Virus record (IMG/VR): IMGVR_UViG_3300037421_000080
Location: 42,086 to 106,085 of that record
Length of the DNA stretch: 64,000 nt
From: a virus
Taxonomy: Duplodnaviria > Heunggongvirae > Uroviricota > Caudoviricetes
Reading direction: 5' to 3' (one strand)
Part shown: positions 3,455 through 45,523 of the stretch, piece after piece
Numbering within the stretch: the first letter of the stretch is position 1
Layout of the letters: each line of letters opens with the position of its first letter
Made by a program: the position numbers and the translations under genes
Notes under the pieces: model-generated
What the model was told of the DNA's origin: nothing
What the model saw: the letters and a program-made list of their open reading frames with translations, nothing else
Databases searched by the model: none

Positions 3455-3455
3455 G

Positions 3456-5440: not shown

Positions 5441-5452
5441 AGGAGATAGATT

Positions 5453-6802: not shown

Positions 6803-6808
6803 TGAACC

Positions 6809-9373
6809 ATGCCAAATGCTCCTCCTTCGTTTCTGTTGACCTTCGCCGGCGTGCCCTTCGTTGCCGACAAGCCCACCAATTTCAATCTTGATATGGTGGA
6901 GGCATACCGTCGCCCAGACCAGGAGCCGGATCTTACCCACACTATCTCCCAGGATCTCATCGAGGAGATCGAGCGCCTTCTGAATACCCGTTACTTTCAG
7001 GACGTAATCGCGGAAGACAGTCGGCCTGGTGCTCCTCTGGATACTCTGGCAACCAGGGCTCCGGCCTATGAGCGAAATCCGTCTGACATCCACATTGGGG
7101 ACTGGTTCTACCCGACGGGTGCTCTCCGCTGGTCCACGTTCCGGGGCCTGATGACTTCCTCTCAGGTCAAGGCAGTTCTACAAGCCACTTGGGGCTCTCC
7201 CCTCAATACCCAATCCTCCTTGCAGGCTCCTGGCGGCCTGTTTGTGATGAACTTCTCCACACAGGGGCCTCCCCTTGCTCTGCCTCCGGGGAATACAATC
7301 CCGGTGCAGGGTTACTCCATCTCCTCCCCGATGTATATGCTTCCGCCCCGACCTCTGGGGGAACAAGGGACTACACTGAGTCAGGCTATCAAGGGCGGCG
7401 GAAGTCTGGATGGCCTCTACCTCATTACACTAGTTGATGAGCGTTACTTCTGGCGTCGACACCCGATCTCCTTCGACATCGACCAGAACTTCACATGGGC
7501 TGGAGTCCTCAAGACCATAGCGAACACTTTGGGGATTTCCCTATCCTATCAGTCCATTCCTGCTGCCTATGGGAGACCTGAGTCCGACTCCCAGCTTGAT
7601 GTCTCCTACGGCCCAGCCCCGGTGCTTCTCAACGCTATTGCCTGCACTCTTGGCTTGGTGCTGGTGCGGAGCTTGAATGCGACCTACCAGTTAATGTCCG
7701 CTCCGACCAGCTACAAGATCCTCCAGGCTAATCGAGGGCTAGCCCAGAACGTGGTGCGGGATGCAGGCGGAGATATCTTCGCTTCCGGAACTCTCTTGCC
7801 CGCTGGAGATTTGACCTACTCTCGTAATGCGATCATCCCCTCTTCTGTCAAGGTCACGTTCCCGATCTATGTTTACACGGATCAGAGTGGAGGCACGATA
7901 ACCCAGGGCGGTGGAGGAGCAGGACAGATAGGCCCGGTCCCTCACTACATGAATCCCCGCTATCAGAATCAGAGGCAGACAGTCTGGTGGGAGGATGACT
8001 ACGGTGGGAACTATACAGTCGATGTCCCTCTGCTCTCCGGGGGCTTGCAGTTCGCTCCCTACTATCTGCCTATTTCTGGAGTCTTCAATTCTGGCCTGAT
8101 CGGGGTTCTGGATGTAGCCAATGCCTTCTCCGGAGGGATCGTCAGCGGCGGCTCCTGGACGAACATATCCGGCGGAGCTAATACGACCACAACCTGGAGA
8201 CCGATCCAGACGATCTCCACGACTGCCAAGGCTCTCTACTCAGGCGAGACGGCTCCTACTCCCGTCAACGCCAGTGGGTTGATTGCAGCCGCAATGCAGG
8301 TCGCCCAGGACTTCTACGGCTGGCAAGCTGGCGTGGCCCTGGACGAAGCCTACCCTGGCACGGTCGCGTGGCAGCCAGAGGGTGGGCACGATATCCTCTG
8401 GCAATGGTCTGAGCGGGAGAACCGAGTCTGTACCCGTGTGTTCAAGGCTCCCTGGAACCAATACCCGTCCCAGCTCCAGTTCTCTCACGCCGAGCTAGTG
8501 AGCGGGCAGGCTGCGAGCGGAAGCCTGGTTCCCTACACCACGATACCTGGAGGCGTTGGGGGTCGGTCTGTGGCCCAGACGTGGCGGGACGCCCCCGCGT
8601 TTGCCAGCGGGGCGCCTACCACGCCCCTGATCGGAGGCAGCGGAAACATCGCCGCCCACGGGGCCGCCCTGGCGATGGCCAGCGGGGACTACTTCGCCTA
8701 CTTCGAGTCCCTTGACAAGTTCCCCACTCAGAACCGCTGGAAGGGCTGGGTCGGCAACGAGAAAATCCTGTTTGAGGGGACCTCCGGGCAGGGGGCGGAT
8801 CCGGGGCTCGGGGCCAACCCGATCCTCAGCGGCTACGGCTACAGGGTCAATATCGTGCAGAGGGGCATCGACGGGACGGTCCAGGTCCCGCACCTCGGGG
8901 CCGGGACAGTCAGCCAGACTATCCACGAGTATGTCACGCAGGCTCTGCCCGACACGGCCTACGGGGTTAACCTGGTCTCCCTGGAGCCCGGCCTGTTCGC
9001 CTACCCGCAGGAGGCGACCAGCGGGGGCATCGCCGGGGTGCGCATCGTTTGCCCCAGCCAGGTCGTCAAGGTCTGCGACGGGGTCGGGTTCACCCTGAGC
9101 GGCATCACCTACTACTCGGGCCGGGTGCAGAGGTTCGACTCCGTCCAGACCAGCGGGAACCAGTTTCTGAGCGGGGAGCTCTGCTGGGTGCTAGATGTCA
9201 TGTACAACCCCCTGAGCTCGGGACGGAACTATGTGGGTAAGATGTCCGACTACTTCGGGTTCACCAAGAGCGCTCCAGGCAAGAACGTGCCGACGGCTCC
9301 ACTCTACCTGGTTCAGCACGGGGTGATGAACGTCATCTGCGACGTGACCAGCGGATTGGTTGTGTTTCAATAA
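6809..9373 (+). CDS. large tail/baseplate protein (854 aa)
   Basis: Long ORF in the tail module. No family recognised. Confidence 0.55.
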   Translation: MPNAPPSFLLTFAGVPFVADKPTNFNLDMVEAYRRPDQEPDLTHTISQDLIEEIERLLNTRYFQDVIAEDSRPGAPLDTLATRAPAYERNPSDIHIGDWFYPTGALRWSTFRGLMTSSQVKAVLQATWGSPLNTQSSLQAPGGLFVMNFSTQGPPLALPPGNTIPVQGYSISSPMYMLPPRPLGEQGTTLSQAIKGGGSLDGLYLITLVDERYFWRRHPISFDIDQNFTWAGVLKTIANTLGISLSYQSIPAAYGRPESDSQLDVSYGPAPVLLNAIACTLGLVLVRSLNATYQLMSAPTSYKILQANRGLAQNVVRDAGGDIFASGTLLPAGDLTYSRNAIIPSSVKVTFPIYVYTDQSGGTITQGGGGAGQIGPVPHYMNPRYQNQRQTVWWEDDYGGNYTVDVPLLSGGLQFAPYYLPISGVFNSGLIGVLDVANAFSGGIVSGGSWTNISGGANTTTTWRPIQTISTTAKALYSGETAPTPVNASGLIAAAMQVAQDFYGWQAGVALDEAYPGTVAWQPEGGHDILWQWSERENRVCTRVFKAPWNQYPSQLQFSHAELVSGQAASGSLVPYTTIPGGVGGRSVAQTWRDAPAFASGAPTTPLIGGSGNIAAHGAALAMASGDYFAYFESLDKFPTQNRWKGWVGNEKILFEGTSGQGADPGLGANPILSGYGYRVNIVQRGIDGTVQVPHLGAGTVSQTIHEYVTQALPDTAYGVNLVSLEPGLFAYPQEATSGGIAGVRIVCPSQVVKVCDGVGFTLSGITYYSGRVQRFDSVQTSGNQFLSGELCWVLDVMYNPLSSGRNYVGKMSDYFGFTKSAPGKNVPTAPLYLVQHGVMNVICDVTSGLVVFQ

Positions 9374-10572
9374 TGCCTAGGATCACGGGATACGACCAGG
9401 CCACCTTCCCCGGCTGCTGCTGCGGCATACCGCCGAGCAGCGGCCTCGGTCCTCCGGGTCCGTGCTGTGCGGAGGTCTTGTGTTCCAGATGCAACGGCAG
9501 CTTCGCCAATACGTGCACCCTCCACGTGCCATTAGGCACATTCAACGCCACCGGCGACGCCAACCTGGACGGGGACTACACCCTCTACTTGATCCCCGTC
9601 GGCTTCGGGGTCGTGGACTGCGGCCAGTTCCCGCCCGGATCCCCTCCCGCCCTCTGGTGCTCCGGACCGGGGCAGTGCGGAGCGTCCCAGTGCCCTACCT
9701 ACGTCTCCCCCGAATTCAATGCGGGGGCGTACAAGGCGTTCTGGTTCCTGGCCTGCACCTACCCGATCGACGCGAACTTCTTTGCGTTTACCGGCAATGG
9801 TCCGGATCTTGGAAGCGGCTGGTGGCTCTCCCTGAGCATCTACACCGCTGGCCACCTGACGTGCGGCTCATACGGGGGCCCGGGGAGGGGCAACGATGAG
9901 ACGTTCTTTCAGACCTACCCAAACTTTGCCTGGAAATTTCCAACAGAGTCTGGTTGGGCTTGCAACAACGGCTCCAATCTCATGACGGCGATCGACGGAA
10001 CAGCATTTCCGGGTTGGTCGTTCGCCCCTTGGGATTTCCTGAGCGCCTATGTCCCCGGCAATTTAACTGTAGTGACCAAGGCCGGCAGCGCCTCCATGCT
10101 GGCAACTTTGGGGGGAACAAACGTCGATCTCAACCCCAACGGGGGGGTATTTCCCGATACGGTCTACCTAACGGTCACCAACCAGACCGGGTTCCCTTGC
10201 AGCATGTCCGGATCGTTCGCCCTGGCCAGGGAGTTCAGCAACGGGAGCTTCCCGAACTACCCGTCGTGGGTGGACGGAAGCCCCCCCTTCGCTGGGCCGC
10301 CTTGCCCCTCCTTTTTGGGGAGCCTCTGCACCGATTCAAACAGATGCGTCTATACGGTCGAGTTGACCTGCGGCTGCCCAGACGGGCCCTATGCACTTAA
10401 CATTTTCTCGGACAGCGGGGCGGGACCAGTTCTGATGGCCTCCTTCGCGCAGACCGGGCAGGAGTGCAACCCATTCATGATCTTGTTCGACTACAGCAAC
10501 GCCCCTACTACTACCGTTGACTGCCTGGGCAACCCCGTGGTCTTTACTTTCAAGGGATTAATCACCGAATGA
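9373..10572 (+). CDS. Cys-rich tail-associated protein
   Basis: TAATG start overlap. About 25 Cys. Several N-x-S/T motifs. Confidence 0.5.
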   Translation: MPRITGYDQATFPGCCCGIPPSSGLGPPGPCCAEVLCSRCNGSFANTCTLHVPLGTFNATGDANLDGDYTLYLIPVGFGVVDCGQFPPGSPPALWCSGPGQCGASQCPTYVSPEFNAGAYKAFWFLACTYPIDANFFAFTGNGPDLGSGWWLSLSIYTAGHLTCGSYGGPGRGNDETFFQTYPNFAWKFPTESGWACNNGSNLMTAIDGTAFPGWSFAPWDFLSAYVPGNLTVVTKAGSASMLATLGGTNVDLNPNGGVFPDTVYLTVTNQTGFPCSMSGSFALAREFSNGSFPNYPSWVDGSPPFAGPPCPSFLGSLCTDSNRCVYTVELTCGCPDGPYALNIFSDSGAGPVLMASFAQTGQECNPFMILFDYSNAPTTTVDCLGNPVVFTFKGLITE

Positions 10573-18747: not shown

Positions 18748-21700
18748 ATGGCCAAGCTATCCATAGTCGCCGGAGCGACCTCTGAGACGGTTGATATATT
18801 CATCCAGGACAGCCGGCAGACAGTAGTCACCGGACTTCCTGGCCTGGTGTACAACTCCTCTGGCTTGACCTGTTATTACAACTTCCGCCGTGGAGCTTCT
18901 ACCTCTGTCACGCTGGTAACTCTTGTAGCAGCTACGTCAGCTTGGTCGAGCGGTGGTTTCAAGGAGATTGATTCCACAAATCAACCAGGGAAGTATCGCT
19001 TCGACATCCCCAATGCCCTCCTGGCCTCTGGGAACGGCCGCTACGTCGGCATCTACTTCCAAGGAGCGACGAATATGTCCCCCTGCTGGATAGAGATTGA
19101 GCTGACGGGACCAGACAACCAAGTAGCCACGAACTTCGGGCTGAGTGCTCTGCCGACTGCGAATCCAGGTGGATCGGGTGGGTTGGTAATTGACGGAGTC
19201 AATACGGCGGCGATCTCGTTCACTGCCGGTGTAACATTCAGCAACGCAGGAGGCGACGTTTTCACTATCACTAGTTCTGGGGGCAATGGCAACGGAATTG
19301 TGGTGGCAGGGAATGGATCAGGCAATGGCCTTAAGGTAACGGCAGGAGCAACCGGTACAGGGGCAATCTTCAATGGCGGGGCTACTTCGGGTGATGGGGT
19401 TGATATTATATGTCCAGCAAATGGCAGTGCAGCACTATCAATATTAGGCAATGGAGGGAATGCGGATGGTATGGTAGTCCAAGGCCACGGATCTGGAGAT
19501 GGAGCTCTTTTCAACAGTGGGGGCTCTGGGGGTAATGGCATCACTTGCCAGGCGCATGGCACAGGATCAGGCATCAGCGCTTTAGGAGGCACTGGAAATA
19601 CTGGGGATGGTATTCGGGCTAACACCAACTCGACCACGGGTCACGGAATCAATGCTATTGGTAATGGTGCGGGTCACGGATTCAAGAGCACTGGGGGAGC
19701 GACTGGATCAGGCATTAACGCCATTGGAGGAGCTACCTCCGGCCCAGGATTGACAATTACAGGCACAAACGACACTGCGATTTCAGTGGTAGCTGGAGGC
19801 ATCGCAGGAAATGGATTGTACATCGCTGGATCTGGTAGTGGGTCTGGCATCTATTGCACTCCTGGCTCCACAGGTGCCGGGATAGTTTTGTTAGGCGGAT
19901 CCTCTTCCGGTCAAGGAATGGTCATCGTCACTGCTTCTGGGAATGGTATCGACATCACCCCAGTTGGAGGGCATGGCGTCAATGTGGTAGCGAACGGTTC
20001 AGGAAATAACGGACTCAATCTTGTAGGAGCCGGAACAGGATCAGGCATCAAGACGGATAAAATCACAACCTCCGGGGCAGTCGTTTTCGGCTCCTCATTT
20101 ACTGTTACAACCACAACCACATTAACTGGAGCCGTCTCTGCCGCAGCTGGCGTAACATTCAGTAACGCATCCGGAGACGCTTTTGTTTGTTCTAGCTCTG
20201 GAGGAAATGGTAACGGAATTAACATCTCCGCTAACGGTTCTGGAACAGGAGTGAAGGTAGCAGCAGGAGCTACAGGTATCGGATTATCCGTAGCGGGGGG
20301 CAGCTCTTCCGGAGTAGGCATTTCTGTCACCACTACTTCTGGCAATGCAATTAACGTTCTGCCGACTGCTGGGCATGCTCTCGTATTGACGGCTAATGGC
20401 AATACAAAATATGGACTTCGAGCAACTGGCGGTTCCGGGGCAGCTAGCTACGGGGCAATCTTTGCCGCAGGAAGTGGATCAAATGGGGGAGGCATAAGCA
20501 TTGTTGGCGATGGAGGTGGGGATGGAATTGATATTTTAGCAGGTAGCACTACTGGTATCGGGGTGTCTATTGCTGGTGGGGGCACTTCTGGGGTGGGGTT
20601 GAGTATCACTACAACTTCCGGAGACGGGATCTCTATCTTGCCCACAGCGGGCCATGGGATTACAATAACGGCAAATGGCAACAAGAATGGTTTGAACATC
20701 TCTGGATCTGGATCAGGTCATGGCATCATATCCACAGCCGGAGCTACAGGCAATGCTCTCACTCTAGTTGGAGGTGGAACATCTGGGGACGGGCTCAACG
20801 TCACCACCACTCTCGGCCACGGCTTCAACATAACTGCCTCTGGCTCCGGTAAGCATGGCATCACTTCCACAGGAGCCGTCGCCGTCACCACCAGTCCAGC
20901 TGGACATGGCCTCAACCTGGTTGGTGGAGCCTCCTCGACCGGAGCTGGCGGGGCCGCTGGAATAGGCTTGAAAGCTATTGGCGGAGCAGGATCCGCCTCC
21001 ACCAACGGGGCTGGGGAGGGTATTACGCTCCTTGGTGGCGGAACCACCACCGTCTCCGGAGCGAATGGCCTGTCCTCTACTGGAACAGGGAACCTCAATG
21101 GCTTCTCTCTGGTCGGGGCCGGGACGGGCGTTGGCCTCTCAACGACTGTGAGCTTCGGCGCTGCCCTTGCCTCCACCTTCTGGAAGGATATAACAGCTTC
21201 CGACTTCTCGACTTTGAATAGTCCGGGCAACATCCTGGTGAACCAGCTGGGGGGCACATTCACCACGACCTCCTCCAGTATCTTCAACGCTGCCTCCCTC
21301 CAGAATGCTCCAACAGGCGGAGGTGGATCGACAGCCTTCGCTATCTGGTCTGACCTGCTTACCAATCCGGAGTTTGCCGTCCCCGGCAGCGTCGGGCAGC
21401 AGGTCGCCCTGTCCCTACCACGCATCACTCCGGGGGCCGTGGTAGTCAATAGCTATCTCGGGGCTACGGGAACAATCACGATCTATCGCTCCAGCGACAA
21501 CTTCGCCGCCGACGGCCGGTCCCTGGACATTCCAGGACCCAGTGTCAACTACTGGCCAAGCCTCTCCGGAGCTACTATAGCCCTGTATGTGGATGGCAGC
21601 CAGCTCTGTGTTGGGTCTGTGGTGACTCCGACGGGGAACCAGGTGATCCGCTTCGAGCCGAGTGCCCTCCAGACGGGCAGGTTCGCCCCGACAGTGCATT

Positions 21701-21792
21701 CCTATGTTGCCTGGGCGACACTCACTGATGGCCACTTCGTGCCTCTGGCCAGCGGACAGTTCGTGGTGCTCAACTCTCAGGGTGGGCCTTGA
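18748..21792 (+). CDS. tail fiber with long glycine-rich periodic repeats
   Basis: 1014 aa. Dozens of GNG.G..V.A.GSG.GL.. units. Opposite-strand ORFs here are shadow ORFs. Confidence 0.65.
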   Translation: MAKLSIVAGATSETVDIFIQDSRQTVVTGLPGLVYNSSGLTCYYNFRRGASTSVTLVTLVAATSAWSSGGFKEIDSTNQPGKYRFDIPNALLASGNGRYVGIYFQGATNMSPCWIEIELTGPDNQVATNFGLSALPTANPGGSGGLVIDGVNTAAISFTAGVTFSNAGGDVFTITSSGGNGNGIVVAGNGSGNGLKVTAGATGTGAIFNGGATSGDGVDIICPANGSAALSILGNGGNADGMVVQGHGSGDGALFNSGGSGGNGITCQAHGTGSGISALGGTGNTGDGIRANTNSTTGHGINAIGNGAGHGFKSTGGATGSGINAIGGATSGPGLTITGTNDTAISVVAGGIAGNGLYIAGSGSGSGIYCTPGSTGAGIVLLGGSSSGQGMVIVTASGNGIDITPVGGHGVNVVANGSGNNGLNLVGAGTGSGIKTDKITTSGAVVFGSSFTVTTTTTLTGAVSAAAGVTFSNASGDAFVCSSSGGNGNGINISANGSGTGVKVAAGATGIGLSVAGGSSSGVGISVTTTSGNAINVLPTAGHALVLTANGNTKYGLRATGGSGAASYGAIFAAGSGSNGGGISIVGDGGGDGIDILAGSTTGIGVSIAGGGTSGVGLSITTTSGDGISILPTAGHGITITANGNKNGLNISGSGSGHGIISTAGATGNALTLVGGGTSGDGLNVTTTLGHGFNITASGSGKHGITSTGAVAVTTSPAGHGLNLVGGASSTGAGGAAGIGLKAIGGAGSASTNGAGEGITLLGGGTTTVSGANGLSSTGTGNLNGFSLVGAGTGVGLSTTVSFGAALASTFWKDITASDFSTLNSPGNILVNQLGGTFTTTSSSIFNAASLQNAPTGGGGSTAFAIWSDLLTNPEFAVPGSVGQQVALSLPRITPGAVVVNSYLGATGTITIYRSSDNFAADGRSLDIPGPSVNYWPSLSGATIALYVDGSQLCVGSVVTPTGNQVIRFEPSALQTGRFAPTVHSYVAWATLTDGHFVPLASGQFVVLNSQGGP

Positions 21793-21799
21793 TTAGGAG

Positions 21800-22510
21800 A
21801 TGAAAATGCCGAGCAAAGGACTAGGGAGTCTGCTAGGTAAGCTAGTCAATCGCCTTCGCAAGCAACCGAAGCCTCCTCCAGTCTCCAAGAAGCCCATCAA
21901 GATCGAGGACGTGAGTCCTTTCGGGGGCAAGTTCGTGGGGCATCGGGGCTATGCTCTCGGGAGCACGGAAGAAGGGAAGATGGATCTATCCCCAGAGAAC
22001 AAGGCCAAGTGGAAGCAGGTATCAAGGGAGTCAGCGGAAGGATTCCTGAACGGAGAGCCTCTTTTTGTCCACTCAACCAATGTGGTCGCAGCGCAGTATT
22101 ATGCCGATGAGAACAAGATGCAGGTGGAGTTCAAGGGGGGCTCTGCCTATCTCTATAGCAATGTGAGCTTGGAGGAGGCATGGGACTTCCTAGAGGCTGG
22201 CAGCAAAGGATCTTGGATCTGGGATAAGCTAAGGGTGCGGGGTAGTAAGACAGCACATCGCAAACCTTATACAAAGATCAAGACTGGCTTCAAGGATCCT
22301 GCTAAGCTAGCGGAGCAGAAAGCCAGGGAGCGTGCTAAGTCCGATGCCAAGGCCAAGAAGGAATTTGACAGACTCTCCCGTCAGGTAGACGACGCTGCTT
22401 TCAAGAGGGCTCAAGCGGAAGCCATGAGAGCAGAACGAGCAGATGCAAAGGAGAATGCTGCCAATGCTAGGGCTCAGGCCGAGTTCAATCGTCGTCTGTT
22501 GAACGGGTGA
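21800..22510 (+). CDS. KTSC-domain protein with Lys/Ala/Glu-rich C-terminal tail
   Basis: AGGAGATGAAAATG SD. Block LFVHSTNVVAAQYYADENKMQVEFKGGSAYLYSNVSLEEAWDFLEAGSKGSWIW matches the KTSC domain. Confidence 0.55.
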   Translation: MKMPSKGLGSLLGKLVNRLRKQPKPPPVSKKPIKIEDVSPFGGKFVGHRGYALGSTEEGKMDLSPENKAKWKQVSRESAEGFLNGEPLFVHSTNVVAAQYYADENKMQVEFKGGSAYLYSNVSLEEAWDFLEAGSKGSWIWDKLRVRGSKTAHRKPYTKIKTGFKDPAKLAEQKARERAKSDAKAKKEFDRLSRQVDDAAFKRAQAEAMRAERADAKENAANARAQAEFNRRLLNG

Positions 22511-22513: not shown

Positions 22514-23371
22514 CTAATAGCACGCCGTGTCTACCACTTCCCCACCAGCCCTCGTGCTGAGAGGGATCGTAGCTGCTGCTCCTCTATATCCTATCCATCG
22601 TACTGACCCATCCACAAAGGCCCAATTCCCGCCATCTCTATGTGGGCTCCAGAAGTGGGTAGAAGCGCAGGGATCCTCGTACTCCCCAGGTCCGTACACA
22701 TTAGGACCGGGACATGGCCCGTAAATGGGCACGTTGCTCTGGGTCGCCATCAGGTTATCGTAATCGCTGAAGGCCCACCAGCCCCAATACAGCTCCGGAG
22801 AAGGCGGTCTCTCGCCGATCATCAGAGTGGTTGAGGCACCGTCCCTCACATCCAGCAGCCTGATCCCCTTCGCCAGACTGGTATCAAATGCTCCGTTCGT
22901 TGGAGTAGCATCGCAGTTCATCGTTGTGCCCACCACACCGCAGTAACTAGTCATTCCAAACGTGCCTGTCTCCGCCCAGCTCGTTCCAGAGAAGCCGGTC
23001 ACCAGATCACGCGGATCGCTGGGGCACAGGAGCAGTGGGATCGCATTGCCGGAGAAGACCATGAAGGATACGTCATCCAGAGTGTAGTCCTGGAGATCCT
23101 TTTGGTCGATGAAGGGCAGGAGCCTCCACATCCAGCCCCGCCTATCGGTGAAGAAGCCTGGGTCGTCCCTTGCTGGCGGAAAGTAGCTGAACTGGTCGTG
23201 ATAGGCGTGAACGGCCATTGCGAGCTGCTTCATGCTGCTTTGGCAGGTGCAGCGGTTGGCTGCTTCCCGTATCTTCTGGACGGCAGGCAGGAGCAGGCCG
23301 ATCAGGATCGCTATGATGGCGATGGAGACGAGAAGCTCGAATATCGTGAAGGCAGGTCGAAGGATAGGCAT
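22514..23371 (-). CDS. DUF1559 / prepilin-type N-terminal methylation-domain protein (Planctomycetes H-X9-DG family)
   Basis: N-term FTIFELLVSIAIIAILIGLLLPAVQKIREAANR = class III signal/pseudopilin helix. C-term H..HRDGGNWAFVDGSVRWI = H-X9-DG motif. Confidence 0.75.
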   Translation of the reverse strand: MPILRPAFTIFELLVSIAIIAILIGLLLPAVQKIREAANRCTCQSSMKQLAMAVHAYHDQFSYFPPARDDPGFFTDRRGWMWRLLPFIDQKDLQDYTLDDVSFMVFSGNAIPLLLCPSDPRDLVTGFSGTSWAETGTFGMTSYCGVVGTTMNCDATPTNGAFDTSLAKGIRLLDVRDGASTTLMIGERPPSPELYWGWWAFSDYDNLMATQSNVPIYGPCPGPNVYGPGEYEDPCASTHFWSPHRDGGNWAFVDGSVRWIGYRGAAATIPLSTRAGGEVVDTACY

Positions 23372-23459: not shown

Positions 23460-23489
23460 ATTGTATTTGATCGGGATAGGTTGGGTCAA
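23460..23489 (-). promoter_or_regulatory. sigma70-like promoter (TTGACC-18-TACAAT) for the DUF1559 gene
   Basis: On the minus strand: cgaTTGACCcaacctatcccgatcaaaTACAATag, about 90 nt upstream of the start codon. Confidence 0.4.
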
Positions 23490-24214
23490 TCGGTAGGAAC
23501 TTCTATCTTCAAACTCCACTCAAAGTGAGTCATCGGCAGCCATCCCTGGACGTAGACCGTATTGAAGAAGGCCGTGAAGGGAACAGGGAATTGCCAGTCC
23601 GCGAACTGTTTCAAGCCCTTGACCAGATCAGGATCCTCGGTGACTTTCGTTCCCAAGAGATCGTCCAGCTCTTGAGATATTTTGCTCTTCGTGACTCCAG
23701 ATTCAATCAATATGACATCAAGGATGGCAACTAGCCCGTAGAGGAGATGCTCCGTTCCGACATAGTTGTTGTTCCTACTGGAAGCGAAGTGCAAGGCATG
23801 CTCAATCACTTTTTTGGAAAGAGGCCCTTGGGGCAGCTTGGAGAAAATACCACCTTCCTGTTTTACAGGCAAGTAGCTCTCTGGCTTCCTTTCTCGGCAT
23901 GCCTTCTGAGTCAATTCTGGAGAGACGCCCATTCTTCGTAGGAGCGTTCCACCTACGCTGTTCTTGTCGTCACAGATGCCGTAGAGGATATGATTTGGTT
24001 GCACGGCGGACCAGCCCCATTCCTTGGCGACCTGGTTAGCCTTCTGCATCACCTTGCGGGCACGGTCGGTGAAGCGTTCGTACAAGTTTGTTCTCCGAAA
24101 ATGAGACCCGATCCCGCCAGCATATTTTCCCCTGCCGCGAAGCTGGTTTGGAGCCAGCTTTACTAGAACAGAGTTATTTCGCTGGCGGGGCAGCATGGTG
24201 AGGGTCCAGCCCAC
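23486..24214 (-). CDS. Clp N-terminal (Clp_N) double-repeat domain protein
   Basis: ERFTDRARKVM...EWGWSAVQPNHILYGI and a second repeat LSKKVIEHALHFASSRNNNYVGTEHLLYGLV match the ClpA/ClpC N-domain repeats. No AAA+ module. True start may be internal. Confidence 0.55.
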   Translation of the reverse strand: MGWTLTMLPRQRNNSVLVKLAPNQLRGRGKYAGGIGSHFRRTNLYERFTDRARKVMQKANQVAKEWGWSAVQPNHILYGICDDKNSVGGTLLRRMGVSPELTQKACRERKPESYLPVKQEGGIFSKLPQGPLSKKVIEHALHFASSRNNNYVGTEHLLYGLVAILDVILIESGVTKSKISQELDDLLGTKVTEDPDLVKGLKQFADWQFPVPFTAFFNTVYVQGWLPMTHFEWSLKIEVPTD

Positions 24215-24274
24215 AATCGCCCTGTCCGCAGGACCGGTGACCGCAGACAGGGTTGAGCCCGCACTTTGATTCCG

Positions 24275-25924
24275 TTATTCAACTGCAAAGTTCGAGATCA
24301 CAGTTGGCGTATCCGTGGAGAAACCTACACAATCAAGCATCCCCGAGTCGGATGGATCCGCCAGGGAGAATCCGTTGGAGGTCATGCCCACGACTACCAG
24401 CTTGGCCGGAATCCCCATCTTCTGGCGATACTGGTCCAATGCTTGGACTGGTTGGATTTCACCGGCCCATGTCTCGCTATCGGTGTAGATGCAGAACACA
24501 TCCACCTTCAGCTTCTGGTCCATCGCGTAGAGCATCGGTAGGGCGCAGTCGGTCCCGCCCATCGGTAGGGCAGCCATCGCCCGGCAAACATCGTCCAGCC
24601 GTTGGCGCGGGGAGATCGGCAGCGTGGTGATTCCGTTGTTGTACCCCATGCTGGAATACTGGCCCCGGCCCCCGTTGCGGCACCAGCCGTTGCTGGTGAA
24701 TGCGACGAAGGCGTGCTGGGGCTCCACCGCCGCAGTCACCAGGGCCATCGCCCCGCTGGCGACGCGGGCGCTCAGGAAAGTTCCGGCGATATGAGATCCT
24801 TCCATCGACCCGGAGACATCTAGGGCCAGCAGCCACCGCTTATTGGTGGGCTCTACAGAATCGAACGCCAGGTAAAAGGCGCCGTCTAGGGCGTCCACTA
24901 CCTGGGCCACTGGGCTCCATGTGTTCTGCCCCTTCTCTCCCCGGCCCTGAGCATAGGTTTTCAACGCCAAGAGAAGAGCCATCGGATGGACGCGGGCCTT
25001 GCGAATCCACTCCTTGTTTGACAGAGAGGAAACCACCTTGGCGGTCCCATCGGAGAGCGGATCCAGCAGACCAACTCGCGTCATGGTTGCCAGGTTGCGA
25101 ACCAGGGCCGTCAGGGGCATCTTCTCCAGCAAGGCTTCCCAGACGCTGGCTTCCGTCAGAAACTGCGTCGGGATGCACTCGCGGGGCAAGTTGTATTCCC
25201 GGATTAGCTTGCAGATCTCTTTCTTGTCCTTGGAGCGCTTGGCCTTTTCGAATGCCCAAATGATCTTGAGGGCATCTTCCGGATGCTCCTCCTCCCCGAT
25301 TCTCTCCCAGCCCTTGACTGCCCAGTGGAAGATGGAGTTCATCGGTTCGTTTGCCTGAGCATGGCAGAGGCGCAGAAGATCTCGATGGCTCCAGCCGTTG
25401 CGATTCTGGTACTTTACGACTCCATAGGCCAATTTATCCGGAGCCTGGGACGTGTACCATCCAGCGACCATCGAACGCAGGGAGCGTCCCCAGCCCCGGA
25501 AGTTCTGGACGGCCTCACAGAACTGGAAGATATGGGTTCCAATGCGGCAGATCTTCGGCAGAGCCTCCGCTACTCCGAACGTAGCTGCCTTTTTGTGGCC
25601 TGCTGCCATCGCCAGGGCGAAGATAGCTGGATCGTTTTTGGGGGCTTTGCCTCCATCGCTAATCTCCACGATCCGTTTGACAACGCGAGCTCCGTCTTCG
25701 TCGAGTAGCTTCTGGACGACCTTGGCGTTTTCGATGGTGAGCTTCTTCTCGGAAGCATAGAAGCTACCTTGGCTCGCGCCCAAAATGAGGAAGCGATCCA
25801 ACCGCTTCCAATCATCGACGGCGAAGGAGTAGCCCCCGGCCGAGTTCTGGACCATCGGCTTTCCCGGGATCGGCTCCGACTGAGGAGTAACGCGGGTGGA
25901 GAAGTGCTTGCTGTAAACGGTCAT
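24275..25924 (-). CDS. rsr: Ro60-like (Rsr) TROVE + vWA/MIDAS protein
   Basis: N-terminal TROVE block MVQNSAGGYSFAVDDWKRLDRFLILGASQGSFYASEK..VVKRIVEIS..PKNDPAIFALAMAA. C-terminal vWA with DVSGSMEG MIDAS. Start chosen at ATG 25924 (AAGGAGG SD) rather than the upstream in-frame Met. Confidence 0.75.
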   Translation of the reverse strand: MTVYSKHFSTRVTPQSEPIPGKPMVQNSAGGYSFAVDDWKRLDRFLILGASQGSFYASEKKLTIENAKVVQKLLDEDGARVVKRIVEISDGGKAPKNDPAIFALAMAAGHKKAATFGVAEALPKICRIGTHIFQFCEAVQNFRGWGRSLRSMVAGWYTSQAPDKLAYGVVKYQNRNGWSHRDLLRLCHAQANEPMNSIFHWAVKGWERIGEEEHPEDALKIIWAFEKAKRSKDKKEICKLIREYNLPRECIPTQFLTEASVWEALLEKMPLTALVRNLATMTRVGLLDPLSDGTAKVVSSLSNKEWIRKARVHPMALLLALKTYAQGRGEKGQNTWSPVAQVVDALDGAFYLAFDSVEPTNKRWLLALDVSGSMEGSHIAGTFLSARVASGAMALVTAAVEPQHAFVAFTSNGWCRNGGRGQYSSMGYNNGITTLPISPRQRLDDVCRAMAALPMGGTDCALPMLYAMDQKLKVDVFCIYTDSETWAGEIQPVQALDQYRQKMGIPAKLVVVGMTSNGFSLADPSDSGMLDCVGFSTDTPTVISNFAVE

Positions 25925-25968
25925 GCTAGCCTCCTTCGGCTGTAAAAGGAGAAAGAGAAGTATTCCCA

Positions 25969-26260
25969 TGGACAAAAACTTGTATCAAGGGGGTATCTTA
26001 ACAGGATAACCTTGACAACAAACGGCCCATAGGGAATGTCAAAAAGCGAGGACAAGTTTTTGCAATGGGGTACATTTTAGCAGATAACCCATTACTCCGG
26101 CCCTCACGAATACGCGATCAAATAGTGCGGACAAAAATTGCCGTTGGGTATGCCGGGACTTTCACCCAGCTGTCTTTTTGCAGAAGATAACCAACATGCG
26201 TCCGGCCCACACAAGCTTCGTTGTTTCAAAATAGCACGGACAAAAGTAGATGTCCGGTTT
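25969..26260. repeat. tandem array of ~78-bp imperfect repeat units (3 full + 1 partial) with conserved blocks GGACAA..TTG..GGGTA..GATAACC..CGGCCC
   Basis: Units start about 25972, 26052, 26130 and 26238. Noncoding, immediately 5' of rsr on the minus strand. Confidence 0.5.
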
Positions 26261-26291
26261 TACTGTGCAGCCATCACACTCCAGCTAGTTA

Positions 26292-26337
26292 CCCAGCTGC
26301 CGGGAATCGAACCCGGTCTAGTCCTTTTTCAGAGGAG
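26292..26337 (-). ncRNA. tRNA 3'-portion-like element: anticodon-type stem-loop (CU-GAA-AA, Phe-like), 4-nt variable region, T-arm (CCGGG-TTCGATT-CCCGG) and 7-nt 3' acceptor strand, but no 5' acceptor/D-arm partner
   Basis: Manual fold of the minus strand. Candidate attP-type tRNA fragment, tRNA pseudogene or Y-RNA module. Confidence 0.3.
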
Positions 26338-26362
26338 AACAGACACCAAACGGCCCGTGCAT

Positions 26363-26453
26363 TGGGGGCAATTGGGATCGAACCGATAATCCTGGACTTC
26401 GACTCGGTTTCCCGAATAAGCTAGTGTTCAGGTGCCCTACCAGGGCTGCCCCC
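26363..26453 (-). ncRNA. tRNA-like structured RNA candidate (possible Y-RNA-like tRNA mimic)
   Basis: 91 nt with a perfect 7-bp acceptor-like terminal stem GGGGGCA/TGCCCCC, a T-arm (ATCGG-TTCGATC-CCAAT, one C.A mismatch) abutting the 3' strand, a D-like hairpin GCCC-tGGta-GGGC and an internal GAAA tetraloop hairpin. No anticodon arm. Confidence 0.35.
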
Positions 26454-26839
26454 TGAAAATCCTCGGTAACTTTGGAAAGCAGATCCAGCGTAGGTTTTCA
26501 ACAAAGCAAGGCGCAGATAAAGTTCGCCAGTGGGTTTTACTGAATTTCTCTACGCTTTCTCCGATTCCCTCAGTCGCCGAAGTTGGGAAATCTCCCGCTC
26601 ATCAGAGATAATCCACTGACATCGACCCCGTACCTTGCAGTCGCGGTTCTGGGGGATGCTCCCAGCAGTCCAAGGTTATGAGCCTCGAATGGGCACTGGC
26701 CCAACCGCAGTCAATTGGCGGACAAGGTAATGCTAGAGGAGTAACAGCCAAGGTAATCCTCTAACTCCGGCCCGCCAGTATTCCATTATAGTATGACACC
26801 GAAACGGCGAAAAGGTTATGGGTTTCTTTCCTTTTTTTA

Positions 26840-27025
26840 TTATCGGCTCTGCTCCAAATCAGCCAAACGACGGTTGAAGAAAGCGATCGTCGTCTTCAAG
26901 TTCAAGATCTCCATCTGCTTCTTACGCTCTGGGTACAGCAGATTCTCTAGTCTTTGCACTTCCTTCTCCAGCTCGTCGACTCTGCGTCGGTGGGGGCAAT
27001 TAGGATCGCCGCAATCTCCGAACAT
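26840..27025 (-). CDS. small Cys/His zinc-binding protein
   Basis: 61 aa, CGDPNCPH motif. Confidence 0.4.
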   Translation of the reverse strand: MFGDCGDPNCPHRRRVDELEKEVQRLENLLYPERKKQMEILNLKTTIAFFNRRLADLEQSR

Positions 27026-27207
27026 TATAGGTGCTCCGCAGCAAGCTTCTTCTTGCCTTTGTCCGTGATCCGCCAGCTGAGTTCAACTAGTCCTTCCTTA
27101 GCCATGTCTTTTAGATGAGCTAGCTCGATCTCGTCATACTGGTCGTTATCGACACAGCCCTGGCACTCAACCAGTTCTTCAAGAATGGCTAGGTCTTCAA
27201 CTTTCAT
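27025..27207 (-). CDS. small hypothetical protein
   Basis: 60 aa. GGGAGTAGAAAATG SD. Confidence 0.4.
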   Translation of the reverse strand: MKVEDLAILEELVECQGCVDNDQYDEIELAHLKDMAKEGLVELSWRITDKGKKKLAAEHL

Positions 27208-36250: not shown

Positions 36251-36321
36251 AGGCCCCCAGAAGGATTTGAACCCTCGCATCCTGGATACAAGCCAGGCGC
36301 TCTACCTCTGAGCTATAGGGG
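36251..36321 (-). tRNA. tRNA-Thr (anticodon UGU)
   Basis: Manual fold. Acceptor GCCCCUA/UGGGGGC 7 bp, D-arm GCUC-AGAGGUA-GAGC, anticodon arm CCUGG-CUUGUAU-CCAGG, variable AUGC, T-arm GAGGG-UUCAAAU-CCUUC, discriminator C. CCA not encoded. Confidence 0.8.
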
Positions 36322-36397
36322 CAAACAGCGGAGGCTAGTAACCAGCCGCCCCCGCTGAGTCCTGTACAGACACAATCTGAACAGAGACCGGTTCGTA

Positions 36398-45475: not shown

Positions 45476-45523
45476 TACAGCTGCCCGGCCAAAGCTTCTT
45501 GAGATCGCGGTAAGGGGCTATCT

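What the first reader, a model, noticed from the sequence alone, without database searches (positions are those of the whole stretch)
24275..25924. Phage-encoded Ro60/Rsr ortholog (TROVE + vWA)
Full-length TROVE domain with the conserved N-terminal block, plus a vWA domain with a DVSGSM MIDAS motif. Ro60 orthologs are RNA-quality-control/RNP proteins that bind Y RNAs. They are patchily distributed in bacteria and rare in phages. The gene sits immediately downstream, on the minus strand, of a noncoding island containing repeat units and tRNA-like elements, matching the usual rsr-Y RNA linkage. A Clp-N-domain gene lies on its other side.
Basis: partly seen in the sequence, partly recalled or inferred. 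Interest (0 to 1): 0.7.

Follow-up and report, generated by a model that had tools for sequence, protein, structure and literature searches.

The report
Phage Ro60 gene with Y-RNA array
A phage-like genome, probably of a planctomycete host, carries a complete Ro60 RNA-binding ring protein and, just upstream on the same strand, six Y RNAs and two tRNA-shaped elements; this is a clear but not unprecedented example of a known protein-RNA partnership.

Summary
ORF 24275-25924 (-) is a full-length Ro60/Rsr: Pfam TROVE (3e-48) and Ro60-type vWA (5e-62), a match to Xenopus Ro60 (2e-126), an intact MIDAS motif, and a predicted closed ring (TM about 0.8 to solved Ro60).

The 860-nt island upstream on the same strand is a dense RNA array. 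It holds six Y-RNA modules:
- one YrlA-type module with T arm, closed acceptor-like stem and D arm
- one module with a T-arm-like hairpin only
- three compact stem-loops of about 65 nt
- one module with a long loop

A non-canonical tRNA(CAU)-like cloverleaf and a second, unverified tRNA-shaped element are interleaved.

Covariance models built from these modules hit 177 sites in 80 bacterial rsr loci. All are on the rsr strand, with strong compensatory pairing. A model built only from cellular relatives recovers the window's modules.

Verdict: a new member of a known kind, of moderate interest. No virion hallmark gene was identified in the window, so "phage" is likely but not proven.

The parts
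24275..25924 (-). rsr / Ro60 gene (549 aa): TROVE HEAT-repeat ring plus Ro60-type vWA domain with MIDAS motif
   Evidence: Pfam TROVE 3.4e-48 and vWA_Ro60 5.3e-62. PDB Ro60 matches at 2e-126. AF2 model pLDDT 86, TM 0.78-0.84 to 1yvp/2i91/9nep. K171, R175 and H188 align with Xenopus K170, R174 and H187.
25930..25937 (-). Shine-Dalgarno-like GAAGGAGG, 5 nt before the ATG
   Evidence: read from the sequence
25964..26034 (-). Y RNA module E: compact, 5' GGGCCGUUUG ... GGUUAUC ... UUUUGUCC 3'
   Evidence: R2 25.9 bits over the full model. R3 14.8 bits. Fold z-score -4.4. This is one of the weaker calls.
26044..26109 (-). Y RNA module D: compact, GGGCCGGAG ... GGGUUAUC ... CUUGUCC; 8-bp lower stem with a bulged C
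   Evidence: R2 65.1 bits. The independent model R3 gives 33.8 bits, E 2.6e-6. Fold z-score -3.8. Rfam sbRNA model RF01656 gives 20.5 bits, below threshold.
26123..26214 (-). Y RNA module C: the effector loop carries a T-arm-like hairpin, CUGGG-UGAAAGU-CCCGG
   Evidence: R2 43.7 bits. R3 33.8 bits, E 2.6e-6. Similar GGGUGNAAGUCCC hairpins occur in relatives' modules.
26232..26362 (-). Y RNA module B, YrlA type: Ro-binding stem, then V region, T arm (CCGGG-UUCGAUU-CCCGG), closed 7-bp acceptor-like stem (CAGCUGG-GUAA-CUAGCUG) and D arm (GUGU-GAUGGCU-GCAC)
   Evidence: R3, built only from 23 modules of cellular relatives, gives 61.1 bits, E 5.3e-13, over the full model 1-135. This is the best hit in the whole window.
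26363..26453 (-). tRNA-shaped element 2 (unverified): 7-bp acceptor GGGGGCA/UGCCCCC, D-like hairpin GCCC-UGGUA-GGGC, T arm AUCGG-UUCGAUC-CCAAU, and a long GAAA-capped hairpin in place of an anticodon arm. Its 3' end abuts module B.
   Evidence: Sequence and fold. Not called by ARAGORN or Rfam. No homologue in 169 loci.
26509..26633 (-). Y RNA module F: GGGGUCGAUG ... GGAUUAUC ... long non-tRNA-like loop ... CUUUAUCUGC
   Evidence: R2 23.3 bits over the full model. R3 14.5 bits. This is a weaker call; its position and strand fit the array.
26640..26709 (-). tRNA-like element 1: 70-nt cloverleaf with anticodon loop CUCAUAA (CAU), 4-nt D loop and non-canonical T loop AGCAUCC
   Evidence: ARAGORN calls it tRNA-Met(CAT) only at the relaxed 80% threshold. 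It is homologous to L083:3837-3906, which lies between Y modules, and to elements in three IMG/VR phage tRNA clusters. RNAalifold gives a cloverleaf with 13 of 22 pairs compensatory.
26714..26779 (-). Y RNA module A: compact, GGGCCGGAG ... CCUUGUCC
   Evidence: R2 53.7 bits. R3 29.4 bits, E 3e-5. Rfam RF01656 32.1 bits, below threshold. Fold z-score -3.6.
26785..26790 (-). perfect TATAAT, 6-7 nt before the first base of module A; candidate -10 box for an array-rsr transcript (inference only)
   Evidence: Read from the sequence. The scan tool listed only a weaker site at 26866-26839.
24220..24252 (-). 12-bp GC-rich hairpin 22 nt after the rsr stop codon, with no U tract; role unknown
   Evidence: read from the sequence
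23486..24214 (-). Clp_N double-repeat protein: a neighbour, not shown to belong to the system
   Evidence: Pfam Clp_N 1.9e-14. phrog_35667. Absent next to rsr in L083 and L084.

Best explanation
The locus is a Ro60-Y RNA ribonucleoprotein cassette carried by a phage-like genome whose host is probably a planctomycete. The gene encodes a complete Ro60 ring. The island upstream encodes at least four, and probably six, Y RNAs. In each, the paired 5' and 3' ends form the Ro60-binding stem (5' GGGCCG(G/U)..., bulged C, 3' UUGUCC). The distal loops differ: one is a YrlA-type permuted tRNA mimic, one has a T-arm-like hairpin only, three are minimal stem-loops and one is a long loop. The most likely mode of action is as follows; these steps are inferred, not shown. 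The array and rsr are transcribed together from a promoter just before module A. The closely packed modules are released by host tRNA-processing enzymes, helped by the two interleaved tRNA-shaped elements, which act as RNase P / 3'-end processing punctuation. Each Y RNA then docks on the outer face of the Ro60 ring. There it gates the central cavity and, through its distal module, tethers Ro60 to a host partner such as PNPase or another 3'-5' exoribonuclease, as in D. radiodurans RYPER and as reported in vitro for Thermus phage phiLo. The expected outcome during infection is remodelling, decay or quality control of structured RNAs (rRNA, tRNA). Shown here: the protein's identity and fold, the RNA family membership with covariation, and the linkage. 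Inferred: co-transcription, processing, partners and the benefit to the phage. The confidence given applies to the identity of the parts (Ro60 plus linked Y RNAs); the processing and partner steps taken alone are nearer 0.4.
For: Protein: Pfam, PDB, NCBIfam and PHROG matches; invariant MIDAS and RNA-binding residues; predicted closed ring with TM about 0.8 to solved Ro60-RNA complexes. RNA: six full-length hits of model R2 in 0.86 kb on the rsr strand, with the next best hit at 2.7 bits. Model R1, built from modules A and D only, found 59 sites in 80 bacterial rsr loci, all on the rsr strand and mostly within 700 nt upstream. In that alignment 95.9% of cells are paired, 15 of 16 pairs show compensatory changes, and slid controls give about 40%. 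R2 found 177 such sites outside the window (181 hits in all), again all on the rsr strand. R3, built without any window sequence, ranks the six modules as the six best hits in the 64-kb window, with B at E 5e-13 including T, AS and D arms. The same models hit the Y RNAs next to Ro in Mycobacterium phage Catera and Gordonia phage Sixama. Packing: gaps of 0-17 nt between elements, except 55 nt before tRNA-shaped element 2. Processing idea: tRNA and Y modules abut or alternate in L095, L083 and Sixama; M. smegmatis YrlA and YrlB come from one precursor, and YrlA with a 7-bp acceptor-like stem is an RNase P substrate (PMC4201824; bioRxiv 10.1101/312249). Function: RYPER and phiLo Ro60-Yrl-PNPase complexes (PMC4201824, PMC12135203).
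Against: There are no expression data. No Rfam family reaches threshold on the island. Modules E and F are weak (E about 0.03-0.14 in large searches). Model R2 is not independent of A, C and D. The A4 and A5 alignments were fitted to the model, which inflates pairing counts. The window modules have GCCGGAG or GCCGUUUG rather than the published GNCGAAN0-1G. No RtcB, PNPase or other known partner gene was found among the window ORFs scanned. tRNA-shaped element 2 has no homologue. The promoter call is by eye, and planctomycete promoters are poorly known. No terminase, portal or capsid gene was recognised.
Confidence: 0.85

Rival explanations
1. The window is not a virus but a cellular genomic island or degraded prophage of a planctomycete, so this is an ordinary bacterial rsr-Y RNA locus.
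For: The closest Ro60 proteins (60-65% identity) that carry names are from Planctomycetes/Gemmataceae and Chloroflexi MAGs. A DUF1559 plus N-methylation-motif gene, a family expanded in planctomycetes, lies 1 kb away. No terminase, portal or capsid was identified, and the + strand ORFs have no PHROG, Pfam, NCBIfam or GenBank-phage match.
Against: The window holds long co-directional blocks with a self-contained replication and recombination set: DnaB-like helicase, split PolA with UDG-exonuclease, clamp loader, UvsX/RecA-like, SbcCD-like and a phage PDDEXK nuclease. It also holds an HNH endonuclease, methyltransferases, a Tet/JBP + P-loop kinase + amino-acid:DNA transferase + radical SAM cluster typical of phage DNA hypermodification, large Ig-repeat and Gly-rich fibre-like proteins, and strong hits to PHROGs of unknown function. 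No housekeeping gene was seen. The database records a 136,935-bp contig for this protein.
Confidence: 0.12
2. The two tRNA-shaped elements are working tRNAs (for example a phage tRNA-Met/Ile2 with anticodon CAU) that merely share a tRNA/Y-RNA gene cluster. They are not processing signals for the Y RNAs.
For: rsr-Y arrays in many relatives and in phage Sixama sit among genuine tRNA genes. The element 1 family has an invariant CUCAUAA anticodon arm. In three IMG/VR phages it carries an encoded CCA end and lies in tRNA clusters without Y modules. ARAGORN calls the L083 copy tRNA-Met at default settings.
Against: The window copy fails ARAGORN default settings and the Rfam tRNA model even at E<=10. 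It has no nucleotides 8-9, a 4-nt D loop without GG and a T loop AGCAUCC, so the D-T elbow contacts of a decoding tRNA look absent (sequence). Element 2 has no anticodon loop at all. The two roles are not mutually exclusive.
Confidence: 0.25
3. The island is decayed tRNA-cluster debris or a set of repeats/terminators, and rsr is a passenger gene acquired from the host with no dedicated RNAs.
For: Rfam finds nothing at gathering thresholds. Folding z-scores of some units are unremarkable (C -1.3, F -1.4, element 1 -0.8).
Against: Strand-specific, rsr-adjacent hits of the same structured motif occur across many phyla, with compensatory changes in 15 of 16 pairs. An independent model recovers the modules. 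Both sequence motifs of the Ro-binding helix are kept in five of the six units (GGGCCG and UUGUCC; module F has variant motifs).
Confidence: 0.03
4. Same parts, different purpose. The cassette is a counter-defence device that protects or helps repair phage and host tRNAs against host anticodon nucleases. The tRNA-mimicking Y RNAs would act as decoys or as guides for repair enzymes, rather than directing RNA decay through an exoribonuclease.
For: Comparative work places phage TROVE proteins among RNA-repair systems (PMC7824862). In Salmonella rsr-yrlBA is co-operonic with rtcBA, which is induced by damaged tRNAs (PMC7790460). One module is a tRNA mimic and two further tRNA-shaped RNAs are present. 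rsr is embedded in tRNA clusters in many relatives.
Against: No RtcB, RNA ligase or polynucleotide kinase-phosphatase was found among the window ORFs scanned. The only kinase hit belongs to the DNA-modification cluster. There is no direct evidence for decoy activity of any Y RNA.
Confidence: 0.2

Closest known systems
Mycobacteriophage cluster C (Bxz1/Catera-type) and Gordonia phage Sixama Ro-like proteins with adjacent YrlA-type RNAs (Pedulla 2003 as cited in, and Chen et al. 2014, PMC4201824)
   Same: A phage-borne full-length Ro60 with several Y modules on the same strand, including one YrlA-type tRNA mimic. The models built here hit 3 modules upstream of Catera Ro, and about 8 in Sixama interleaved with tRNAs.
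   Different: Only 46-48% protein identity. The host phylum differs. The window protein is closer to planctomycete and Chloroflexi cellular Rsr (60-65%), which suggests a separate acquisition. The interleaved elements here are non-canonical tRNA shapes rather than normal tRNAs.
Thermus phage phiLo Ro60 with Yrl1/Yrl2 (PMC12135203; PDB 9KOP)
   Same: A phage Ro60 with Y-like RNAs in the upstream non-coding region. That paper reports in-vitro Ro60-Yrl-host PNPase complexes, which supply the mechanism proposed here.
   Different: Very distant protein: 17% identity and TM 0.52-0.59 to the model, against 40-42% identity and TM about 0.8 to vertebrate Ro60. Two RNAs there, six here.
Bacterial rsr-Y RNA loci: D. 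radiodurans Rsr/Yrn1/PNPase (RYPER), Salmonella rsr-yrlBA-rtcBA, M. smegmatis yrlA-yrlB-rsr
   Same: Same protein family (2nvo, 2e-110). Y RNAs within 4 kb on the same strand. YrlA order is 5' stem-V-T-AS-D-3' stem. A 7-bp acceptor-like stem as in M. smegmatis YrlA. Multiple Y RNAs come from one precursor (PMC4201824, bioRxiv 10.1101/312249).
   Different: No rtcBA or RtcR in the window. The 5' motif is GCCGGAG or GCCGUUUG instead of GNCGAA(N)G. There are more modules than in the studied species, although relatives found here have up to 9-12.
Metazoan Y RNAs and nematode stem-bulge RNAs (Rfam RF00019, RF01656)
   Same: An 8-bp lower stem with a bulged C. 5' GG(G/U)CCG(A/G) and 3' UUG(U/A)CC. 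A GGGUUAUC-type motif at the top of the upper stem. Modules A and D give subthreshold hits to RF01656. The protein is 40-42% identical to vertebrate Ro60.
   Different: Below Rfam thresholds, with no RF00019 hit. Encoded in a tandem array next to the protein gene rather than as separate Pol III genes.

Membership tests
Ro60 / Rsr (TROVE + vWA ring protein) | TROVE domain followed by a Ro60-type vWA domain, full length | tested here: met
   Pfam TROVE 3.4e-48 and vWA_Ro60 5.3e-62. A single alignment covers residues 14-548 against Xenopus Ro60 6-535.
Ro60 / Rsr (TROVE + vWA ring protein) | MIDAS motif DxSxS...T...D (definition as in PMC11277228) | tested here: met
   D369-V-S371-G-S373, T458-D459 and T481-D482. 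All are invariant in 26 homologues and aligned to the same motifs in Xenopus Ro60.
Ro60 / Rsr (TROVE + vWA ring protein) | Closed HEAT-repeat ring capped by the vWA domain | tested here: met
   AF2 model with pLDDT 86.2 and pTM 0.81. Foldseek TM 0.78-0.84 over 541-555 columns to 1yvp, 2i91 and 9nep, and 0.71-0.77 to 2nvo. This is a prediction, not a solved structure.
Ro60 / Rsr (TROVE + vWA ring protein) | Conserved RNA-contact residues (His187, whose H187S mutant loses Y RNA binding per PMC11277228; Lys170/Arg174 from my own recollection of the Ro60 literature) | tested here: met
   K171, R175 and H188 align with Xenopus K170, R174 and H187. K171 and R175 are invariant in A1.
Ro60 / Rsr (TROVE + vWA ring protein) | NCBIfam equivalog NF041674 'RNA-binding protein Rsr' at its curated cut-off | tested here: not met
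   505.7 bits (E 1e-151), against a cut-off of 900. It is a clear homologue but falls outside that narrowly trained equivalog.
Ro60 / Rsr (TROVE + vWA ring protein) | Binds Y RNA and misfolded RNA | not testable with these tools
   Needs EMSA or RIP.
Bacterial Y RNA (Ro60-binding module) | 5' and 3' ends pair into a long stem carrying the Ro60 site; the structure is conserved | tested here: met
   Folds of the individual modules. Six full-length CM hits. 95.9% paired with 15 of 16 pairs compensatory in 62 sequences (the alignment was fitted to the model).
Bacterial Y RNA (Ro60-binding module) | 5'-strand motif GNCGAAN0-1G (Chen et al. 2014) | tested here: inconclusive
   The window modules read GCCGGAG (A, D), GCCGGACG (C), GCCGUUUG (B, E) and GUCGAUG (F). 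Each departs from the published motif. GGGCCGGAG is the second commonest form among 147 modules of relatives (28, against 34 with GGGCCGAAG).
Bacterial Y RNA (Ro60-binding module) | Encoded within about 4 kb of rsr on the same strand | tested here: met
   All six lie 40-855 nt upstream of the rsr ATG on the - strand. The same rule holds for the 177 R2 hits outside the window, in 80 loci.
YrlA subfamily (tRNA-mimicking Y RNA) | Effector module with T stem-loop, closed acceptor-like stem and D stem-loop, in that order | tested here: met
   Module B scores 61.1 bits, E 5.3e-13, over the full model R3, which was built from relatives only. The alignment shows the T arm with UUCGAUU loop, the 7-bp AS and a D arm with GG. 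Modules A, C, D, E and F lack the full set.
YrlA subfamily (tRNA-mimicking Y RNA) | L-shaped fold, and tRNA-type modifications by TruB/DusA | not testable with these tools
   Needs structure probing or modification mapping.
Canonical tRNA (for the two tRNA-shaped elements) | Passes standard tRNA detectors | tested here: not met
   ARAGORN at default settings finds only tRNA-Thr at 36252-36322. The Rfam tRNA model gives no hit on the island even at E<=10. Element 1 is called only at the relaxed 80% threshold. Element 2 appears only, and inconsistently, at 70%.
Canonical tRNA (for the two tRNA-shaped elements) | Cloverleaf supported by covariation | tested here: met
   Met for element 1 only: the RNAalifold consensus of three divergent copies is a cloverleaf, with 13 of 22 pairs compensatory. 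Element 2 has no homologues, so it is untested.
Tailed phage genome | Virion hallmark genes (terminase, portal, major capsid) | tested here: inconclusive
   None was recognised in the 64-kb window by Pfam, PHROGs, NCBIfam or tblastn against GenBank phages. The window is under half of the 137-kb contig recorded for this protein.
Tailed phage genome | Phage-type replication, recombination and DNA-modification modules | tested here: met
   DnaB-like helicase (phrog_19), UvsX-like (phrog_97), PolA, clamp loader, phage PDDEXK nuclease, Tet/JBP + kinase + ADDT cluster, and phrog_24024, phrog_6364 and phrog_16743.

The most novel reading that the evidence does not exclude
The island is a single polycistronic precursor in which non-decoding tRNA mimics serve as built-in RNase P / 3'-processing signals. 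They release a set of six different Y RNA adaptors, letting one phage Ro60 ring be directed to several host partners or gated differently during infection. The alternating tRNA / Y RNA arrays seen next to rsr in many bacteria and phages would then be an unrecognised, general way of making Y RNAs with the tRNA maturation machinery.
Probability: 0.2. Interest if true: 0.65.

Novelty: new member of a known kind. Interest (0 to 1): 0.4.

Why it matters
Ro60-Y RNA particles are conserved from bacteria to humans, where Ro60 is a major autoantigen, yet their function in bacteria is understood in only two or three species and in phages hardly at all. This locus adds a Ro60 that is unusually close to the vertebrate protein (40-42% identity). 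It sits in a phage-like genome from a poorly studied host phylum, with a compact and diverse set of six Y RNAs, so it could serve as a small model for how one ring uses several RNA adaptors. The comparative by-product may matter more than the locus. Y-RNA modules of this type occur as arrays of up to 9-12 copies, always on the rsr strand. They are often inside tRNA gene clusters and sometimes alternate strictly with tRNAs. No Rfam family captures them, so they go unannotated even in deposited phage genomes.

Tried and rejected
- Rfam at gathering thresholds found only tRNA-Thr. In E-value mode it gave no Y_RNA hit, only subthreshold sbRNA, tmRNA-T-arm and mascRNA matches.
- A search of IMG/VR for close relatives of the protein found none.
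- Virion genes were sought by tblastn of ORFs 2144-3454 and 3435-4817 against GenBank phages (no match), by PHROGs at E<=0.05 and by NCBIfam. ORF 5453-6802 has only 3 homologues in 5.8 billion proteins. A single-sequence AF2 model of ORF 2144-3454 was unusable, with pLDDT 50 and all helix. No virion gene was identified.
- A by-eye resemblance of module F's CUGAUGAG...GAAA to a hammerhead core was dropped, because the stem II spacing is wrong and Rfam gives no hit.
- I first read 51455-52390 as a DpdA/queuine transglycosylase from a weak PHROG hit. Pfam shows it is a Tet/JBP dioxygenase.
- An exact search for the D arm of tRNA-shaped element 2 found no homologue in any fetched locus.
- Two papers, Sim 2009 and the 2020 Annual Review, were not held. 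The K170/R174 role therefore rests on my memory.
- Clp_N as a functional partner was rejected: it is not conserved next to rsr in the closest relatives.
Full report
**1. The gene**

The ORF listing shows a 566-aa frame at 24275..25975 (-) from a TTG. The internal ATG at 25924 is preceded by GAAGGAGG five nt upstream.

Database matches:
- Pfam: vWA_Ro60 5.3e-62 over the whole profile, and TROVE 3.4e-48.
- PHROGs: phrog_850 'RNA-binding protein', 2.1e-86.
- NCBIfam: the Rsr equivalog scores 505.7 bits, below its narrow 900-bit cut-off.
- Solved structures: Xenopus Ro60 (1yvp) 2e-126, human RO60 (9nen) 8e-124 and D. radiodurans Rsr (2nvo) 2e-110, each as one stretch across residues 14-548.

The MIDAS signature DxSxS...T...D (definition from PMC11277228) is present as DVSGSM 369-374, GGTDC 456-460 and YTDSET 480-485. 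It is invariant in 26 homologues. K171, R175 and H188 align with Xenopus K170, R174 and H187. The H187S mutant is reported to lose Y RNA binding (PMC11277228). The role of K170/R174 is from my memory.

An AlphaFold2 model from the 26-sequence alignment has pLDDT 86 and pTM 0.81. It superposes on Ro60 structures over about 550 columns with TM 0.78-0.84 and 40-42% identity. Against Deinococcus Rsr the TM is 0.71-0.77. Against the only solved phage Ro60 (Thermus phage phiLo, 9kop) the TM is only 0.52-0.59, at 17% identity.

**2. The island**

On the - strand between the upstream 61-aa ORF (stop at 26840) and rsr there are 915 nt without a credible ORF. GGGCCG occurs at 26773, 26356, 26208, 26103 and 26028. 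TTGTCC occurs at 26725, 26243, 26134, 26055 and 25975. These form five ordered pairs in 0.8 kb, against 12 and 10 occurrences on that strand in the remaining 63 kb.

Each pair closes a stem: 8 bp, then a bulged C, then GG and an upper stem often ending in GGUUAUC. This is the architecture of the Ro60-binding helix of Y RNAs (5' GGUCCGA / 3' UUGACC in vertebrates; PMC4201824 and bioRxiv 10.1101/312249).

Rfam has nothing at threshold. In E-value mode, modules A and D give subthreshold matches (32.1 and 20.5 bits; threshold 38) to RF01656, a nematode sRNA family. I recall its members being regarded as stem-bulge RNAs homologous to Y RNAs. Module B's hairpin matches tmRNA and tRNA T arms.

**3. 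Testing the RNA family with outside sequences**

A scan of one genome per species returned 80 loci with Ro60 homologues of 50-59% identity. They come from Chloroflexota, Armatimonadota, Verrucomicrobiota, Myxococcota, Gemmatimonadota, Planctomycetota, Actinomycetota and others.

- Model R1, built from modules A and D alone, found 59 sites in those loci. Every one is on the rsr strand, and nearly all lie within about 700 nt upstream of rsr.
- On the resulting alignment 95.9% of cells are paired, and 15 of 16 pairs show changes on both sides. Partners slid by 1-3 columns give 36-44%. The caveat is that the alignment was fitted to the model.
- The rebuilt model R2 found 181 sites at E<=0.1, four of them in the window. 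All are on the rsr strand.
- The family consensus is NNNGCGGGCCG(A/G)AG-stem-GGGUUAUC ... CCC-stem-CA(N)CAACUUG(Y)CCGC.
- Among 147 modules of relatives, GGGCCGAAG (34) and GGGCCGGAG (28, the form in the window's A and D) are the commonest 5' motifs, and 121 carry the G(G/U)UUA(U/C)C motif.
- Run without filters on 25800-27200, R2 gives six full-length matches on the - strand: D 65.1, A 53.7, C 43.7, E 25.9, F 23.3 and B 20.5 bits. The next best hit scores 2.7 bits. Module F (26509-26633) had escaped inspection by eye.

**4. The YrlA-type module**

Many long modules in the relatives have a canonical T arm (GGUUCGAGUCC) and D arm (GUAGCUCAGUGGUAGAGC) separated by a closed stem. That is the T-AS-D order that defines YrlA (PMC4201824; bioRxiv 10.1101/312249).

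Model R3 was built from 23 such modules with no window sequence. It was then run on the whole 64-kb window. The six modules are the six best hits. B scores 61.1 bits, E 5.3e-13, aligned over the full model, with T arm CCGGG-UUCGAUU-CCCGG, a 7-bp acceptor-like stem with GUAA loop, and D arm GUGU-GAUGGCU-GCAC. C, D and A reach E 3e-6 to 3e-5. E and F reach 0.11-0.14.

So:
- B is a YrlA-type Y RNA.
- C carries only a T-arm-like hairpin (CUGGG-UGAAAGU-CCCGG). The published M. smegmatis YrlB is also said to have a possible T arm.
- A, D and E are minimal Y RNAs.
- F has a long loop that is not tRNA-like.

**5. The tRNA-shaped elements**

Between A and F lies a 70-nt cloverleaf (26640-26709) with anticodon loop CUCAUAA. 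ARAGORN calls it tRNA-Met(CAT) only at a relaxed threshold.

Its counterpart was found in L083, an MGE-like contig (T5orf172, GIY-YIG/NUMOD3, ParB, integrase) that carries one of the closest Ro60 proteins (63%). There a 70-nt 'tRNA-Met' lies between Y modules 2 and 3. The two share identical D arm (GGGCCAGUGCCC) and anticodon arm (GGCUCAUAACC) but have entirely different, still pairing, acceptor and T stems.

The same signature occurs in three IMG/VR phage contigs inside tRNA clusters. There it has an encoded CCA and no Y modules in the fetched stretch. RNAalifold on the three variants returns a cloverleaf with 13 of 22 pairs compensatory. It is a real, conserved, non-canonical tRNA-like RNA: no nucleotides 8-9, a 4-nt D loop and T loop AGCAUCC.

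The second element (26363-26453) has a 7-bp acceptor stem, a D-like hairpin with GG, a good T arm with loop UUCGAUC, and a long GAAA-capped hairpin in place of the anticodon arm. Its last base abuts module B. It has no homologue in 169 loci and is not called by any detector. I list it as unverified.

**6. Layout**

5' to 3' on the - strand:
- TATAAT (26790-26785)
- A (26779-26714)
- 4-nt gap
- tRNA-like 1 (26709-26640)
- 6-nt gap
- F (26633-26509)
- 55-nt gap containing a hairpin
- tRNA-shaped 2 (26453-26363)
- 0-nt gap
- B (26362-26232)
- 17-nt gap
- C (26214-26123)
- 13-nt gap
- D (26109-26044)
- 9-nt gap
- E (26034-25964)
- 39 nt including the Shine-Dalgarno sequence
- rsr

A 12-bp hairpin follows rsr (24252-24220), then the Clp_N gene.

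The packing, the single plausible promoter and the precedent of M. smegmatis (YrlA and YrlB processed from one precursor upstream of rsr; PMC4201824) make co-transcription and processing the likeliest reading. This is an inference.

**7. How usual this is**

Ro60 is found in 358 GenBank phage records: 212 Mycobacterium, 115 Streptomyces, 11 Gordonia, 10 Microbacterium and a handful from Agrobacterium, Sinorhizobium, Vibrio and Myxococcus phages. All are at 48% identity or less to this protein. Chen et al. 2014 reported YrlA-like RNAs in 254 bacteria and 22 phages. A 2025 paper solved phiLo Ro60 and showed binding to two upstream Y-like RNAs and host PNPase (PMC12135203).

Applying my models:
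- Catera has three modules upstream of Ro.
- Sixama has about eight, abutting tRNA genes.
- In cellular relatives arrays reach 9-12 modules (L082, L039, L073).
- In many Verrucomicrobiota, Chloroflexota and Gemmatimonadota, rsr and its Y arrays are embedded in same-strand tRNA clusters.
- L095 shows strict alternation: tRNA-Gly | Y | tRNA-Pro | Y | tRNA-Met | Y | rsr.

The window's six modules plus tRNA-shaped spacers are therefore a good example of a recurrent design, not an outlier.

**8. Is it a phage?**

The window has a + strand block (1-22510) of mostly unmatchable ORFs. It ends with a 1659-aa Ig-repeat protein and a 1014-aa glycine-rich protein.

The - strand block carries:
- DnaB-like helicase
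- PolA split from a UDG + 3'-5' exonuclease
- clamp loader
- UvsX/RecA-like protein
- SbcCD-like pair
- phage PDDEXK nuclease
- methyltransferases
- an HNH endonuclease
- a Tet/JBP dioxygenase + P-loop nucleotide kinase + amino-acid:DNA transferase + FAD oxidoreductase + radical SAM cluster of the kind used by phages to hypermodify DNA
- one tRNA-Thr

.

No terminase, portal or capsid gene was recognised. I rate 'phage or phage-like element' at about 0.85. A DUF1559 / N-methylation-motif gene and the named closest Ro60 homologues (Planctomycetes, Gemmataceae) point to a planctomycete host. They also suggest acquisition of rsr from a cellular lineage rather than from actinophages.

**9. Mechanism and verdict**

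Shown:
- a complete Ro60
- a set of RNAs belonging to the rsr-linked Y RNA family, one of them a YrlA-type tRNA mimic
- tight same-strand linkage

Inferred from the studied systems:
- The RNAs bind the outer face of the ring through the GGGCCG/UUGUCC helix.
- They gate the cavity and tether Ro60 to host factors such as PNPase.
- The tRNA-shaped spacers and B's 7-bp acceptor-like stem recruit RNase P and 3' processing to cut the precursor.

The benefit to the phage is open: RNA turnover for nucleotide supply, quality control of its own RNAs, or defence of the tRNA pool.

It is a new member of a known kind. Its interest is moderate, and it is raised somewhat by the general pattern of unannotated Y-RNA/tRNA arrays that it led to.

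Noticed in passing
window 50934-55774 (-): A cluster typical of phage DNA hypermodification: P-loop nucleotide kinase3, Tet/JBP 2OG-Fe dioxygenase (also phrog_24024, 2.8e-80), a methyltransferase-like ORF, amino-acid:DNA transferase (ADDT), FAD oxidoreductase and a radical SAM enzyme. The modified base was not worked out.
   Followed up: partly
window 22514-23371 (-): A DUF1559 protein with an N-terminal prepilin-type methylation motif sits in a phage-like genome, two genes from rsr. This family is hugely expanded in planctomycetes. It is a host clue and an odd cargo gene.
   Followed up: no
L047, L051, L067, L070, L033, L020, L078, L074, L095, L088 (Gordonia phage Sixama): In many bacteria and in a deposited phage, rsr and its Y-RNA modules sit inside same-strand tRNA gene clusters. 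In L095 and Sixama, tRNAs and Y modules alternate and abut base to base. None of these Y modules is annotated in the phage records.
   Followed up: partly
L082 4716-6064, L039, L073 1588-2937: Tandem arrays of 8-12 Y-RNA modules lie next to a single rsr gene in Chloroflexota and Rhodomicrobiaceae MAGs. In L082 they are mostly downstream of rsr.
   Followed up: partly
L085 507-535, L086 1639-1667, L087 91-119 (IMG/VR contigs of 120, 122 and 36 kb): The non-canonical tRNA(CAU)-like element with invariant GGGCCAGUGCCC and GGCUCAUAACC also occurs in phage tRNA clusters. There it has a CGCGGGA.../...UCCCGCC-A-CCA acceptor end reminiscent of initiator tRNA, and ARAGORN does not call it.
   Followed up: partly
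window 43647-48083 (-): DNA polymerase A is split. The polymerase domain is at 43647-45143, and the UDG-family domain fused to the 3'-5' exonuclease is at 46836-48083. A PRA-PH/MazG-like pyrophosphohydrolase (45756-46283) lies between them.
   Followed up: no
window 2144-10572 (+) and 18748-21792 (+): A run of large ORFs has no match in Pfam, PHROGs, NCBIfam or GenBank phages. ORF 5453-6802 has only three homologues among 5.8 billion proteins. This looks like a very poorly sampled virus lineage.
   Followed up: partly
window 21800-22510 (+): A KTSC-domain protein with a long Lys/Ala/Glu-rich tail lies at the junction of the two strand blocks.
   Followed up: no
L083 4054-4983: In the MGE-like relative, a GIY-YIG/NUMOD3 homing-endonuclease-type ORF is inserted between the Y-RNA array and rsr.
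   Followed up: no
window 26454-26508 (-): A 55-nt spacer between module F and tRNA-shaped element 2 folds into its own hairpin (UGAAAACCU...AGGAUUUUCA). It is the only sizeable gap in the array, and its role is unknown.
   Followed up: no
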